A stretch of 64,000 bases of DNA from a virus. The stretch lies in the IMG/VR virus record IMGVR_UViG_3300025864_000012, positions 1 through 64,000 of that record, one strand, 5' to 3'. Below are positions 1 to 9,000 of this stretch, piece by piece; within the stretch, counting starts at the first letter, position 1, and each line of letters begins with the position of its first letter. A program made the position numbers.

Positions 1-3000
1 CTACACGAAGGCACGATCGCAGAGCCAGGCGTCTACATCGGCAGCGGCCCATACAACCGCAAGCTGGCTGGCCTCGCCGTAACCGGCGTGGATCATCCGA
101 AGCTCTACGCAGCCAGCAACGACGGCGAGGACGTGTTCTACATCAAGGACATCTAGAGGGAGGAAACATGAGCGCAATGAGTGAGCTCTACCTCGAGGTC
201 TGCGAGATAGCAGACCTGGACATGGACGAAGACGAGGCGTGCATGGACACCGTCAGCGACGCCATCAGGCGCGTCGACGTCGAGTCCATCGTCGGCCTCA
301 ACCTGCTGCCGCAGTCCTGCCGCATCCGCATCCTCGCGGAGCTGACAGCGGCACAGATACCACACTGACGAGCGCCGGGTGACACCCGGGCGAAACGGGG
401 GGCAAATGCCCCCGTCTGTGGTAGTCAACCAAAGGAGGGAGCATGGGACACTGGATTCAACTGATAGACCCGGACACGGGCGAGACCCTTGAGATGGATG
501 AGCGTTTCGTGGACGGCGGTACCTACCCGAGCGACGGCACGAACGAGTGCGAGCTGAGTGTGACCTACAACTACGGTCGCATCTACGCCAAGGTCCTGCC
601 ACACGACGGGAGCGAGACCAATGGGGCCATCTCCTGGCTCTATGGCAAGACGGGGGCCGAGACGCTGCCTGCACTGCTTGCGGCAGTGGCAGAGCTCGGA
701 ACCTTGCGGGACGCAGACTACTGGAAGACGACTGAAGGCAACGCAGGTGCGGCACTTGCCCGCCTCACTGCCTTCGCTGCCGCTCATCCAGAAGGCATCT
801 GGGAAGGCGACTGAGGAGAGGGAACATGAGAGCCCGTAAGAAGCGCGACCTGTACGTCAACCTCAAGACTCTTACCATCACCGACAAGGTCGGTAACATC
901 ATCACGAGGTTCGGCACGTTGTACGACCTAGAGCGATGGCTATACAGGCAGGGAAAGATCCTCGTGCCGATTGGGGAACCGCACTGAAGAGTCCCGGGTG
1001 GCACCCGGGCGAAACGCCTCCCCACTCCCTCCGGGGAGGCGTCTGCGGAAGCCTACACACCAAGGTTACTCTGCCCGGGTGGCTACAGCCTCGGGCATAC
1101 CCCGAAGGGAGGGTACCATGCAGCGAGTGGCAGAACGTCGGGAGACAGTGCGTACCACTTCGCGTATCACCCCGGGGCAAACGCGCCCATCGGCTGACTG
1201 GACCACCAGGGGCCAGCATGCCCGTCATTCGACGCAGCGTCACGCCCATCAAACAGGGGAATCCCCGGCTAAGAATCTGGCCGGGCAAACAGGGGAGAAA
1301 AGCACATGATGAGAATGCGGGACAGCCAGCGTCAGAAACTCTACAACTGGGAGGCTAGGTTTGCTCCCGAGGGGGAACACCTATCGCTGGATGAGTGTGC
1401 CGCGCTCGTCAAGAAAGTGGTGCGTCACTACGGAGTTCCGATGCCAGAGGTGAAGGACGGACGCGGTACGCGCTGGGCAAGGGGCGGAAAGCGCTACATC
1501 AGCCTGCCAACCTGGGCACGATCGGAGGAAGTCGTCATCCACGAGGCGTCGCACTGCGTAGTCGACCACTACATTGGCTACTGCGGGGTGGCCAGTCACG
1601 GTCCTGAGTACGTATGGCTCTACACCAACACACTTGCGTGGCACTTCGGCGCGCGAGTCAGTGAACTCCGCAGCTCGGCTCGGTACGTCGGCAAGCTGAA
1701 GATCAGGAAGCCGGAGCGTTACGAAGCACTCCGAAAGAAGTTCCGCGCTATGCAAAAGATGCGCAAGATGGTATGAGTTCAGACCCGTACTGAAGATGGC
1801 TGGGTGGCTCCCAGCCGAAACGCCCGGTCGACCCGGTAACTTCCCTCCTCCGGACCACCGGCCGGGCGTATACGGAAGCCATAAGACCCCGATGAAGTAA
1901 AGCAGGGCAGGCCCGGCCAAGAATCTACGGAGGGAAGAATGGACTACAACGACAAGTACAAAGTGAAGGTGCCGGAAGGCGAACAAGGCAGCTGGCGGGT
2001 CGAACACTTCGAAGTCCCGTCGAACTCCTGGCAAGCGTTCAAGTATGGTGCACGCGCGCCAAATCCCGGCACGTACACCCGGCTCATTCACGTCAACGGT
2101 TTTGGCCCCGTGATGAGCGACACGTCAGCCGAAGTTAGGGACCATTGGGAGGTCATCGCAAAGCTGAAGAGCGCCAAGCCTGACAGCCGAGTGCTCGTTC
2201 ACGGACTGGGCATCGGCATGGTGCTACAAGTGGCACTGCGCAACGAGAACATCCAGCACGTCGACGTTGTCGAGCTGGAGCAGGACGTCATCGACCTAGT
2301 CGCTCCGCACTACCTGGAGCGCACCGAGAGCGGAAGGCTGACCGTCCACCACGGTGACGCGTTCACGTTCAAGTTCCCCGTCGGCACGCGCTGGAGCATC
2401 GCATGGCACGACATCTGGCCGACGATGTGCACTGACGACCTCGCTGAGCACGCCAAGCTGAACCGGCGCTACGCGAAGGCGGCAGACTGGCAGGGCTGCT
2501 GGGCCCACGAGCTGCTGCTCGACATAAGGAGAAGAGGTGGGTGACGATGGCAAAAGTGAAGGTGTTTCAGCACGGCAACCGCTACATCTGCCAATGTCGC
2601 TACGAAGAGAAAGAGATCCCAAAGTCACGCGGGTTCCGCTGGGATAAGAGCATCGGCTGTTGGTGGACAGACGACATCAGCAAAGCTGCGAAGCTGATCC
2701 ACTACTCCGACAAGAAACTGCGCCCACAGCTCGAGGCCGTCCTCGCGCAAGAGCAGGCCAACATCGAGGCCTCCCGCGCCGCGACATTCGACGGCGAGCT
2801 GCCGGTGCCGGAAGGGCTAGCGTACCTGCCCTACCAGAAGGCCGGTATCGCTGCCATGCTCAATCGCCCCTCCACTTTGCTGGCGGATGAGATGGGGCTG
2901 GGCAAGACCGTGGAAGCCATCGGGGTCATCAATACTGACCCAAGCATCAAGCGTGTGCTCGTGATCTGCCCAGCCACACTCAAATTGAACTGGGTGCGGG

Positions 3001-6000: not shown

Positions 6001-9000
6001 GCAAACGCGGTCACAGGCATCCGAATGGCACTACGTCATTCGACCAGCACTGTGGCACGTGCCGCCTACTGTCTGCGATTGACGACCTAGACGCCTACCG
6101 TGAGCTGAAGAAGAGAATCGAGGAGGAAGAACATGGCATGGGCAATCACTGAGGCAGTGCTCTTCACGTCTGCGTCCCTCACGACCTTCCTTTTCGGGGT
6201 CAAGTGGGGCGTCTCGTTGGAGCGCATCAGGCAAGAGACACGAAGGGAGAAGTCGTGAAGAACGGCACCGGAGTCAAGCTCATCGAGGTCCGCGACAGTG
6301 GCACCACGATGCCCTGCATGGTCACGGCGATCTGCACCAACGACGCCGAGCACGAACCCGACCGCTGGCTTATCCACCGTGGCGGCTGGGACAAGGATCA
6401 GGTCGGACTCTACTTCGCGTCCCTGTGCCCGGAAAACAACGAATACGCAGTCGGCGTGGCTGGCTATCCGTACATCCACACGTGGAGCCGGACGCAGCAC
6501 AGCCGCACGCTGAAGATCGCGTGGGAATGGGTCCAGGCACACTGGGATGAGGTCAGCTCAGGCGACGTCATCGACGTGCAGTACATCATGGGCGAGACAA
6601 CCGCTCCCAAGCTGAGTGACCGACTGTACGGAACGCCGGAGTACGAAGCGGCTTACGACCAAGAGGCATAGTCGAAACGCGGGGCGACCCGCGTCTGCCG
6701 AGCTCGGCCTATCGGCACTGATGAGACAGGCTAACTGAGGAGGAAGAATGAAGAACGGACCAACCCACGAGGACCGGCTCATCGAGCTGCTGAACGACGG
6801 GCACTGGCACTCAGGCCGTGAGATGGCCATCAAGGTGTCTCACCGCTTCGGTGGCTACCTGTTCACGATGAAGCAACACGGCTACAAGTGGGAAAAGCGG
6901 CTTGACCCCGAACGCCCGACAGGGCAATCGTGGTGGCAGTACCGCCTGACCGGCGTCCCCGGCGCTTGCATCCACATCGATGAAGAGACAGGCCAGACGC
7001 GCCTGGAGTCGTCATGAGCGACACACCGAAGAGGTCGCCCGCGCTGGATTGCCGATGGCTCGGAATCCGGCGCTCTGAGAAAGAATCCGCCACGTCGTTC
7101 TACTACTGCGGCAACTTCCTAGAGCGCATTGGCTTATTCGGCATCACCTGCTGCGGGTGCACAGGGCATGACAAGCGGTTCATGATGAACAGGTCATGAG
7201 CAAGTATGAGCTCGGCCAGGTCAACATGGCCAAGGAGATCATCGCATGGGTTAGCTGTGAACACGAGCATCACGGCACACTCGACGAAGAATGGTTCAAC
7301 ACGATAATCATGGAGGTTCCGGACGGCGATAACGATCCACCCTACCCGGGCTGCCAAGACGGCGGCTACCCCTACGTCAACTCGCTATCCCTGGAGCGCC
7401 ACCTGCTTCACCGCATCAGGGTGCTATCAGTGAGAGCGAACCAGAAGGCGGGTGAGGAATGACCCTCCACAAGAACACCACCAGCAAGAAGGCGCTGGAA
7501 GAGGCGCTGTCGCGTATGGATTTCTTCACCGCGTGGTTCACCGACTCCACCAAGCCGAACGACATGGAAGCCTGTAACGCTGCGTGGAAGGAGAGCCAAG
7601 AGCATGAGAGCCAGAGAGGGCATGAGGCAGGCAGGCAATACACAAGATAAGCGTATCTCTGCGCCAGAAGGGCTGGGCTTGCCGGACCTGAGCCGCCTGG
7701 AGGTTCTGCGAGCAATCGACAATGGGGAATGCCCCTTCTGCGGAAACGGTCCCCTTCATTCCGTGGGCAGGCACCTCAGCAAACACGGACTCAGGGCAAA
7801 CGATGTACGACGTCTGTATGGCATCACCAAGCAGCATGCGTTCGTCAGCACCGAAGTGTCTGCCAAGCTGAGTGAGGGCAACAACAGACGCCTGCTGGAC
7901 CCGCTGTACAAGGAGGAGATCACAACCCGTATCATCAAGGCACCACAGCCAAGCGGCGGTCCCCGGCACGGTGAGGCGGTGGACCACATACGAGAATCAA
8001 AGCGGGCGCACCGCTTCATGAGTGTTTGTGTTGCCTGCGGGTCCAAGTTTTGGAGCGCAAATGGTCGCCGCACGTGCAGTCCGCCTTGCGAACAGCAGGC
8101 GCGTCATGACAACGCAGCTCACGGGCTCATGAAGTGGAAATCCGAGCACCCAGAACAGGTCATTGAAAACGCCCGGAAGATGGGGAAGGCACAGAAAGGC
8201 CGTAAGTTAGGGCCAAAGTCAGCATCCCACAAGGCAGCGCTCTCGGCCTCCTGGACAGAAGAACGCCGCGAAGCCCTTCGCGAGCGCAACAGAAGCCACC
8301 GACATAAACCCTGGACCGAGGAGCGCCGCGAAGCTCTCCGTGAGCGCAACAGAAGCCGCCGCAAAAACAGGGGCGAGCCCGGCCAAGAATTGAGGTGAGA
8401 TGGCAATCGTAACGATCGGCTTCACCGGCACACAGAAGGGCATGTCGCCCGAACAGAAGCAGCAGCTCGAGGACTTGCTCTGGGCGCTGACTTCCTGCGG
8501 TACGCAGGTCGAACTTCACCACGGCGACTGTATCGGCGCTGACGCCGAAGCGCACGACATCGCAAGGCGATGCCAGGCCATAGTGCACATCCACCCATCA
8601 AGGTCACCACTCAAGCGGGCGTACCGCGAGGGTGACGTCATGTACGTCGAGAAGGAGAACCTCACGCGGAACCGAGACATCGTAGACGCCGGCAACCTGC
8701 TCATCGCAGCACCTGACAGCGACGTCGAACGCCTGCGGTCCGGTACGTGGGCAACCGTGCGCTACGCTCGCAAGTCTGGCAAGGTGGTACTCACCCTGGC
8801 CCGTTAGCGAGCACACGAAAGGAGGAAAATCATGGAAGCGGGCGTCTTCACACTCAACGTCGACACCGAACTCAACGACGATGGTAACATCACCGTTGCT
8901 GTGGAAGACAAGACGGTATTCCACGGCAACATGGTAGAGGCCGTCGCGGCTTGCGACGCCATTCAAAGGGTACTGGCTGCGGGCGGCTTCGCCGGGTTTA

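What the first reader, a model, noticed from the sequence alone, without database searches (positions are those of the whole stretch)
358..6732. Four hammerhead ribozymes punctuate the early operon at gene ends
Seen in sequence: three type I hammerheads (358-427, 979-1053, 1785-1881) and one type II hammerhead (6671-6732) lie on the coding strand. All have CUGANGA, GAAAC and a GUH site. Their tertiary contacts covary: loop UGAC with GUCA, GGC with GCC, UGGCU with AGCCA, and GCCU with AGGC. That pattern is hard to explain by chance. Each lies at or within about 10 nt of a stop codon and cuts between genes. Established: hammerheads self-cleave to give 2',3'-cyclic phosphate and 5'-OH ends. Inference: the phage cuts its early polycistronic mRNA into separate units without host RNase III, an RNA-only counterpart of T7 early processing.
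Basis: partly seen in the sequence, partly recalled or inferred. Interest (0 to 1): 0.9.

Follow-up and report, generated by a model that had tools for sequence, protein, structure and literature searches.

The report
Four hammerhead ribozymes between phage genes
Four genuine self-cutting hammerhead RNA motifs lie between genes at one end of an uncultured 94-kb phage genome and probably chop a long transcript into shorter messages. Such arrays have been known in phages and prophages since 2011 and are very common, so this is a clean but ordinary example.

Summary
Three type I hammerheads (358-427, 979-1053, 1785-1881) and one type II hammerhead (6670-6735) lie on the + strand, which is the coding strand. 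Each has an intact catalytic core and lies at or within about 10 nt of the end of a gene.

- **Type II copy:** it passes Rfam's curated threshold.
- **Type I copies:** they fail Rfam's type I model. A covariance model built only from nine hammerheads of other phage contigs picks out exactly these three in the 64-kb window (E 2e-9 to 1.5e-5; next hit 15 bits).
- **Chance:** a structural descriptor finds 3-4 sites, against 0.04 expected per shuffled genome.
- **Family support:** 15 of 18 stem pairs show compensatory changes, and the loop II/3'-tail pseudoknot is supported.

The interpretation, ribozyme processing of a polycistronic mRNA, is plausible but untested here. It is not new: Perreault et al. 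2011 described clustered, pseudoknotted hammerheads flanking prophage genes and showed cleavage. I found 159 family members in 80 viral contigs, in arrays of up to 9. This scan has also flagged phage hammerheads on other DNA many times.

The idea that the phage's RtcB ligase makes circular mRNAs gains no support. RtcB is absent from all 50 related records searched, and stem I compatibility shows no directional bias. No RNA data could be obtained.

The parts
358..427 (+). HH1, type I hammerhead. Predicted cut after C416. Loop II UGAC (380-383) can pair with GUCA (424-427).
   Evidence: Sequence. Found by the bulge-tolerant descriptor. Model R1 gives 26.7 bits, E 1.5e-5. The minimum-energy fold is the three-way junction, z -3.6. 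No Rfam hit.
979..1053 (+). HH2, type I hammerhead. Predicted cut after C1043. Loop II GGC (1000-1002) can pair with GCC (1051-1053).
   Evidence: Found by the descriptor. R1 gives 40.1 bits, E 2e-9. Rfam type I gives 17.5 bits and RAGATH-1 25 bits, both below threshold. The fold is the hammerhead junction, z -3.0.
1785..1881 (+). HH3, type I hammerhead with an extra U (1797) after CUGAAGA and a long stem III. Predicted cut after A1870. Loop II UGGCU (1805-1809) can pair with AGCCA (1877-1881).
   Evidence: Found by the descriptor when one inserted base is allowed. R1 gives 29.2 bits, E 3e-6 with filters off. Fold z -3.2. The same extra U recurs in L004 copies and in all seven L030 type II copies.
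6670..6735 (+). HH4, type II hammerhead. Predicted cut after C6695. Loop I GCCU (6707-6710) can pair with AGGC (6728-6731).
   Evidence: Rfam RF02276 gives 40.9 bits against a gathering score of 37. Found by the descriptor. Its minimum-energy fold is a competing structure, not the hammerhead fold.
168..368 (+). 66-aa gene whose stop codon TGA (366-368) is the UGA of the HH1 core.
   Evidence: ORF list. GGGAGG ribosome-binding site upstream and GC3 0.85. Context script.
443..987 (+). Two genes (443-814, 123 aa; 826-987, 53 aa) between the cuts of HH1 and HH2. The second ends at the UGA of the HH2 core.
   Evidence: No Pfam or PHROG family.
1118..1776 (+). Two ORFs between the cuts of HH2 and HH3: 1118-1309 (63 aa, atypical composition) and 1306-1776 (156 aa, HExxH motif, weak SprT-like match).
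   Evidence: GC3 is 0.59 for the first ORF and 0.73 for the second.
1939..6671 (+). Gene block between HH3 and HH4: methyltransferase (1939-2544), SNF2 helicase with DUF6011 (2541-4649), then small genes up to 6255-6671.
   Evidence: Pfam and PHROGs. ORFs. Coding-type GC3 of 0.80-0.82.
6748..7017 (+). First gene after HH4. Its ribosome-binding site GAGGAGG directly follows the pseudoknot tail.

Best explanation
These are four active-looking cis-cleaving hammerhead ribozymes built into the gaps between + strand genes of a phage operon.

Each gap follows one plan: end of the upstream gene, then the ribozyme, then a short tail that pairs with a ribozyme loop (a pseudoknot holding stems I and II parallel), then the ribosome-binding site and start of the next gene.

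Once transcribed, each ribozyme cuts itself after GUC or GUA. This gives a 2',3'-cyclic phosphate and a 5'-OH. The transcript would split into pieces 417-1043, 1044-1870, 1871-6695 and 6696 onward.

With the type I copies, the upstream message keeps its stop codon and ends in two stable hairpins (stems II and III). The downstream message starts with a short unstructured 5'-OH leader just before its ribosome-binding site. With the type II copy, the upstream piece ends in stem III and the downstream piece begins with the stem I hairpin.

The likely benefit is that each unit gets its own stability and its own translation start, insulated from upstream sequence.

Shown: the motifs, their covariation, their placement and their family. 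Inferred: co-transcription, cleavage in vivo and the effect on stability and translation.
For: - Core and helices are intact in all four copies.
- HH4 passes Rfam's curated threshold.
- The descriptor finds 3-4 sites against 0.04 expected by chance, all on the + strand.
- Independent model R1 finds exactly HH1-3 in 64 kb on both strands and nothing in 64-94 kb.
- On 19 family members, 97.6% of cells are paired and 15 of 18 pairs carry changes on both sides. Slid controls give 34-46%.
- Pseudoknot: family mean 4.6 bp against 3.5 bp for shuffled tails, 0 of 2000 shuffles as good.
- Gene context: all 19 lie between same-strand ORFs and 18 are followed by a ribosome-binding site and start.
- In 127 further distinct members, 123 have an upstream ORF ending between -60 and +3 of C3. 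Of these, 46 end at the core UGA itself. 100 are followed by a start, and no locus has copies on both strands.
- + strand ORFs here have coding-type composition (GC3 0.73-0.85 for all but ORF 1118-1309, 0.59) and GGAGG sites; the long - strand ORFs do not.
- Published precedent: clustered prophage hammerheads cleave in vitro and in E. coli, and mRNA processing was proposed (PMC3088659; review PMC6765202).
Against: - No RNA evidence for this phage.
- No promoter was identified, so co-transcription is assumed only from tight same-strand packing.
- HH1-3 miss Rfam's type I threshold.
- HH3 has an extra core-adjacent U that may slow cleavage.
- HH2's pseudoknot is only 3 bp.
- HH4's minimum-energy fold is a competing structure.
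- A repeated 12-mer just upstream of genes 1306 and 1939 could mark internal promoters. That would make some units independent of processing.
- The alignment used for covariation was fitted to the model's structure.
Confidence: 0.65

Rival explanations
1. The ribozymes are conditional switches rather than constitutive scissors. Cleavage would be gated by translation of the upstream gene, because a ribosome terminating at or just before the core UGA unwinds stem I and the core. Alternatively it would be gated by ions or a factor, so that the amount or lifetime of the downstream message follows upstream translation.
For: The stop codon is the core UGA in HH1 and HH2, in 6 of 19 close relatives and in 46 of 127 wider family members. 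Upstream ORFs almost never read past the core: 123 of 127 stop between -60 and +3. HH3 carries a core-adjacent insertion and HH4 has a competing fold, which would suit slow or tunable cleavage. Perreault et al. also raised regulated cleavage for phage hammerheads.
Against: 46 of 123 is close to the one third that random reading phase would give. The overlap can therefore be simple genome compaction. No ligand-binding or switch element is visible. Nothing here measures rates.
Confidence: 0.15
2. The hammerheads mark the borders of exchangeable accessory-gene cassettes. As short conserved repeats they would mainly promote recombination and cassette shuffling between phages, and cleavage would matter little.
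For: Copies within a genome are paralogous; the stem II sequences of HH1 and HH2 are nearly identical. The flanked genes differ between phages and mostly have no known family. The same module occurs in many unrelated viral contigs, in arrays of up to 9.
Against: Compensatory changes keep all three helices and the pseudoknot intact, and the catalytic core is invariant. That implies selection on the RNA fold, not just on a DNA repeat. Strand and position relative to stop and start codons are strictly kept.
Confidence: 0.1
3. Segments cut out by two neighbouring hammerheads (417-1043 and 1044-1870) are joined end to end into circular mRNAs, or cut sites are resealed. The joining agent would be the phage's own RtcB ligase (47073-48146, - strand) or the reverse reaction of the ribozyme.
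For: Hammerhead products carry exactly the ends RtcB joins (established chemistry). RtcB is encoded by this phage. In the window, the 3' strand of stem I and the tail of each upstream copy can pair with the 5' strand of stem I and loop II of the next copy if G-U pairs are allowed, while the reverse combinations cannot (sequence).
Against: - RtcB is absent from all 50 related records, including a complete 49.7-kb genome with two hammerheads.
- 49 of 78 loci hold a single copy.
- Among 27 non-identical neighbouring pairs in the family, forward and reverse compatibility are equal (14 and 14; only-forward 6, only-reverse 6; neither 7). Random between-locus pairs are compatible 40% of the time.
- The window's directional pattern has a chance probability of roughly 12-25%.
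- Perreault et al. looked for circular or spliced products and found none.
- RtcB here belongs to a larger RNA-repair gene set.
Confidence: 0.04
4. The motifs are chance look-alikes or dead relics with no activity.
For: HH1-3 fail Rfam's type I threshold. One relative (L036) has the essential A15.1-U16.1 pair swapped, so decayed copies do exist in the family.
Against: 0.04 hits are expected per shuffled genome against 3-4 found. The independent model gives E-values down to 2e-9. The cores are intact, and placement is strict.
Confidence: 0.03

Closest known systems
Clustered hammerhead ribozymes flanking genes in prophages (Perreault et al. 2011, PLoS Comput Biol, PMC3088659)
   Same: Several hammerheads of mixed types on one strand, flanking single genes or short gene blocks in phage DNA. 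Pseudoknot contacts between stems I and II. Proposed role in cutting long phage transcripts into gene-length mRNAs.
   Different: This is a new uncultured 94-kb phage with different flanked genes. I add the family-wide layout (stop at or before the core, ribosome-binding site right after the tail). Cleavage is not tested here, whereas theirs was.
Rfam Hammerhead_II (RF02276) and Hammerhead_1 (RF00163), clan CL00010
   Same: HH4 matches RF02276 end to end above threshold, including the 3' tail that forms the pseudoknot. HH1-3 have the type I topology and core.
   Different: HH1-3 score far below RF00163's threshold. They belong to a phage subfamily with a 5-bp stem I and a loop II/3'-tail pseudoknot that this model captures poorly.
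RNase III processing of the T7 early transcript
   Same: The outcome would be similar: a polycistronic phage transcript cut between genes, with upstream pieces ending in stable hairpins.
   Different: T7 uses a host protein enzyme acting on double-stranded sites and leaves 5'-phosphate and 3'-OH ends. Here the RNA cuts itself and leaves 5'-OH and a cyclic phosphate. This is a resemblance in how it works, not membership.
Synthetic ribozyme insulators such as RiboJ
   Same: A hammerhead placed just before a ribosome-binding site removes upstream RNA, so that translation of the next gene no longer depends on context.
   Different: Those are engineered parts derived from a plant satellite RNA. The phage modules are natural and also shape the 3' end of the upstream message.

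Membership tests
Hammerhead ribozyme (clan CL00010) | Conserved core: C3 U4 G5 A6 N7 G8 A9, G12 A13 A14, the A15.1-U16.1 pair, and H17 (not G) at the cut | tested here: met
   Read directly in all four copies. HH3 has one extra U between A9 and stem II, a variation that recurs in relatives.
Hammerhead ribozyme (clan CL00010) | Three helices around the core, kept by compensatory changes | tested here: met
   97.6% of cells paired and 15 of 18 pairs with changes on both sides in 19 family members; slid controls 34-46%. The alignment was fitted to the model. HH1-3 fold into the junction.
Hammerhead ribozyme (clan CL00010) | [quoted passage not shown] | tested here: met
   Family level: 0 of 2000 shuffles as good. 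Paired words differ between copies (UGAC/GUCA, UGGCU/AGCCA, GCGGC/GCCGC, UGGUC/GACCA). For the three window copies alone the test is inconclusive (478 of 5000).
Hammerhead ribozyme (clan CL00010) | Score at or above Rfam's curated gathering threshold | tested here: inconclusive
   HH4 yes: 40.9 against 37. HH1-3 no: only HH2 appears, at 17.5 against 34. A model built from phage relatives does find all three.
Hammerhead ribozyme (clan CL00010) | Site-specific, Mg2+-dependent self-cleavage | not testable with these tools
   Needs in vitro transcription.
Clustered phage/prophage hammerhead arrays (Perreault 2011) | Two or more hammerheads on the strand of the genes they flank, in phage DNA | tested here: met
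   Four copies on the + strand in the first 6.8 kb of a phage record. Relatives have arrays of 2-9 copies, never on mixed strands.
RtcB-dependent circular RNA systems (retrozyme-like) | Ligase co-occurs with the ribozyme pairs, and the ends of excised units are selectively compatible | tested here: not met
   RtcB occurs only in this genome among 51 records. Stem I compatibility has no directional bias in 27 neighbouring pairs.

The most novel reading that the evidence does not exclude
The gene units cut out by neighbouring hammerheads (627 and 827 nt) are resealed or circularised by the phage's own RtcB ligase. This would give exonuclease-resistant circular mRNAs, or a reversible cut-and-reseal control of early messages. 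The window's stems and tails fit this in the forward direction, but family-wide tests give it no support.
Probability: 0.04. Interest if true: 0.8.

Novelty: new member of a known kind. Interest (0 to 1): 0.27.

Why it matters
What bacterial and phage hammerheads are for remains an open question (2019 review, PMC6765202). This locus adds a clean case with two ribozyme types in one operon.

The family-wide layout I measured gives concrete constraints for any model of function:
- translation stops at or before the catalytic core in 123 of 127 copies;
- in about a third of those, the stop codon is the core UGA itself;
- the next ribosome-binding site usually follows soon after the pseudoknot tail.

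The phage is uncultured, the arrangement has been published, and the family is abundant. The finding is therefore useful as annotation and as one data point, not as a discovery.

Tried and rejected
- **Close relatives for site-by-site comparison:** none usable. Megablast of 1-7200 against cultured phages found no match. The helicase's best cultured relatives are about 40% identical. A single-protein scan of viral contigs found nothing. An exact scan for the shared HH1/HH2 stem II found nothing. The metagenome scan gave one 3.2-kb contig (86% helicase identity) that does not reach any hammerhead site.
- **MAFFT alignment of the 17 type I copies (A2):** too ragged at the 3' side, so I replaced it with model-based alignments (A5, A6).
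- **Positional orthology of HH3 with the L012 copy:** rejected. Both follow weak SprT-like genes, but the two proteins show no BLASTP similarity.
- **Joining the record's end to its start:** the ORF across the junction translates to low-complexity Arg/Ala-rich text, so a circular join is not supported.
- **Promoter scans:** nothing useful.
- **Supplement search of the 2011 paper for this subfamily's stem I/core word:** only an unrelated primer.
- **Papers on stop-codon overlap or on phage RtcB with hammerheads:** none found.

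
Full report
**What is in the sequence.** The window is the first 64 kb of a 94,142-bp viral record of 60% G+C.

- HH1 (358-427), HH2 (979-1053) and HH3 (1785-1881) have the type I order. That order is: 5' strand of stem I, CUGANGA, stem II hairpin, GAAA, stem III hairpin, GUH, 3' strand of stem I.
- HH4 (6670-6735) has the type II order: stem II is open, and stems III and I are hairpins.
- HH3 carries one extra U (1797) between the CUGAAGA box and stem II, and has a long stem III.

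**Is it more than chance?**

- Rfam at its curated thresholds reports HH4 (RF02276, 40.9 bits against 37). It does not report HH1-3. With a permissive E-value only HH2 appears, at 17.5 bits against RF00163's threshold of 34, and at 25 bits as a partial match to RAGATH-1.
- I therefore tested the type I copies in two other ways. First, a structural descriptor (core words plus minimum helix lengths, all three topologies, both strands) found HH2, HH3 and HH4 in the whole 94-kb genome and nothing else. One hundred shuffled genomes gave a mean of 0.04 hits. Allowing one bulge per helix added HH1.
- Second, I built covariance model R1 from nine type I hammerheads found in four other viral contigs, using no window sequence. 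With filters off over the whole window and both strands, it scored HH2 at 40.1 bits (E 2e-9), HH3 at 29.2 (3e-6) and HH1 at 26.7 (1.5e-5). The next hit scored 15.1 bits.
- R1 found nothing in the remaining 30 kb of the genome, and neither did Rfam.
- HH1-3 fold by minimum free energy into the expected three-way junction, with z-scores of -3.0 to -3.6. HH4's minimum-energy fold is a competing structure.

An alignment of the neighbouring SNF2 helicase with database homologues retrieved 80 viral loci.

- Six of them (L004, L012, L072, L074, L079, L080) carry 1-4 type I hammerheads of the same build, on the helicase strand. L036 adds one probably inactive copy.
- L030 carries seven type II copies in 3.7 kb.
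- On the 19-member model alignment, 97.6% of cells form standard pairs and 15 of 18 pairs show changes on both sides. Sliding the partners gives only 34-46% pairing. The caveat is that this alignment was fitted to the model.
- The contact between loop II and the tail 1-4 nt after stem I averages 4.6 bp against 3.5 bp for shuffled tails; 0 of 2000 shuffles did as well. The paired words change together: UGAC/GUCA, UGGCU/AGCCA, GCGGC/GCCGC, UGGUC/GACCA, UUGGC/GCCAA.
- For the three window copies alone the same test is not significant (478 of 5000).

**Gene context.**

- The + strand ORFs in 1-7 kb have coding-type composition (GC3 0.73-0.85) and GGAGG-like sites 5-10 nt before the start. The long - strand ORFs have neither.
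- In HH1 and HH2 the stop codon of the upstream gene is the UGA inside CUGANGA. In HH3 it lies 9 nt before the ribozyme. In HH4 it overlaps the first base.
- The pseudoknot tail is followed by the next gene's ribosome-binding site within a few bases for HH1 and HH4, and about 40-50 nt further on for HH2 and HH3.
R1 confirmed 159 copies in 80 loci.
- Of 127 distinct copies, 123 have an upstream ORF ending between -60 and +3 of C3, and 46 of these end exactly at the core UGA. One hundred have a ribosome-binding site and start soon after. Arrays reach 9 copies, and no locus has copies on both strands.
- 46 of 123 is about the one third expected from random reading phase. I therefore read the overlap as compaction. 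The firmer rule is that translation almost never enters the ribozyme body.

**How it most likely works.** The layout fits cis-cleaving ribozymes that split a same-strand transcript between genes.

- After a type I cut, the upstream piece keeps its stop codon and ends in stems II and III with a cyclic phosphate. The downstream piece starts as a short 5'-OH leader before its ribosome-binding site.
- After the type II cut, the downstream piece starts with the stem I hairpin.
- This should give each unit its own stability and an insulated translation start.
- These consequences are inferred. I have no transcript data and found no promoter.

**Comparison with what is known.** Perreault et al. 2011 (PMC3088659) reported that multiple hammerheads of types I, II and III flank single genes or short blocks in prophages. 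They found that about 40% of hammerheads use a pseudoknot between stems I and II. Three triple arrays cleaved in vitro, and one cleaved in E. coli. They proposed processing into gene-length mRNAs, and they looked for circular or spliced products without finding any. A 2019 review still lists the function as open (PMC6765202).

This scan's own index holds 402 notes on phage hammerheads in at least 344 genomes, some with far larger arrays. The present locus is therefore a new member of a known kind. The T7/RNase III comparison is a fair analogy of outcome, not of mechanism.

**The RtcB idea.** RtcB is indeed encoded at 47073-48146 on the - strand. In the window, the forward stem I and tail combinations can pair with G-U wobbles while the reverse ones cannot. 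Four results argue against the idea:

- None of the 50 related records has RtcB, including a complete 49.7-kb genome with two hammerheads.
- 49 of 78 loci hold a single copy.
- In 27 non-identical neighbouring pairs, forward and reverse compatibility are equal (14 each; only-forward 6, only-reverse 6; neither 7). Random between-locus pairs are compatible 40% of the time.
- The window's pattern has roughly a 12-25% chance probability.

I keep this as the low-probability novel case.

**Verdict.** Interest is modest.

Noticed in passing
window 1267-1278 and 1915-1926 (+): The 12-mer GGCYAAGAATCT occurs twice exactly, each 12-27 nt before a gene start (1306 and 1939), the second just after HH3. 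With one mismatch allowed there are 4 matches in the window against 0.38 expected. It could be an internal promoter or a protein-binding site.
   Followed up: partly
L030:869-4579 (+), same record as G018:40564-44279: Seven type II hammerheads in 3.7 kb upstream of an SNF2 helicase, one per small-gene junction. All have an extra U after CUGAYGA and a CCCC/GGGG pseudoknot. Three pass Rfam's threshold and four lie just under it.
   Followed up: partly
window 1797; L004:13298-13372; L004:6040-6112; all L030 copies: An extra U between A9 of the core and the first pair of stem II recurs in independent copies of both type I and type II. It looks like a tolerated or selected core-adjacent variant rather than an error.
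   Followed up: partly
L036:2560-2637 (+): A hammerhead-like copy in which the essential A15.1-U16.1 pair is swapped to U-A. It is probably an inactive relic or an unusual variant.
   Followed up: no
window 1072-1097 (+): A hairpin just after HH2 whose arms and UGGCU loop resemble stem II of the neighbouring hammerheads. It may be a remnant of a decayed copy. The surrounding leader shows no unusual folding energy (z -0.25).
   Followed up: partly
window 1118-1309 (+): A 63-aa ORF with a good ribosome-binding site and an ATGA overlap with the next gene, but atypical composition (GC3 0.59, GC2 0.64) and an Arg/Thr/Gln-rich product. It may not be a real gene. If not, about 250 nt after the HH2 cut would be an untranslated leader.
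   Followed up: partly
window 57538-57618 (-), beside tRNAs at 57190-57534: Rfam's tmRNA model matches end to end at 69.9 bits, but only 16 nt stand in place of about 310 nt of the model's middle. This is a tRNA-like domain without the messenger part, next to four tRNA genes.
   Followed up: no
window 372-396 and 991-1015 (+): Stem II and the following GAAAC of HH1 and HH2 are almost identical (one loop base and the bulged base differ). This points to a recent duplication within this phage lineage.
   Followed up: no
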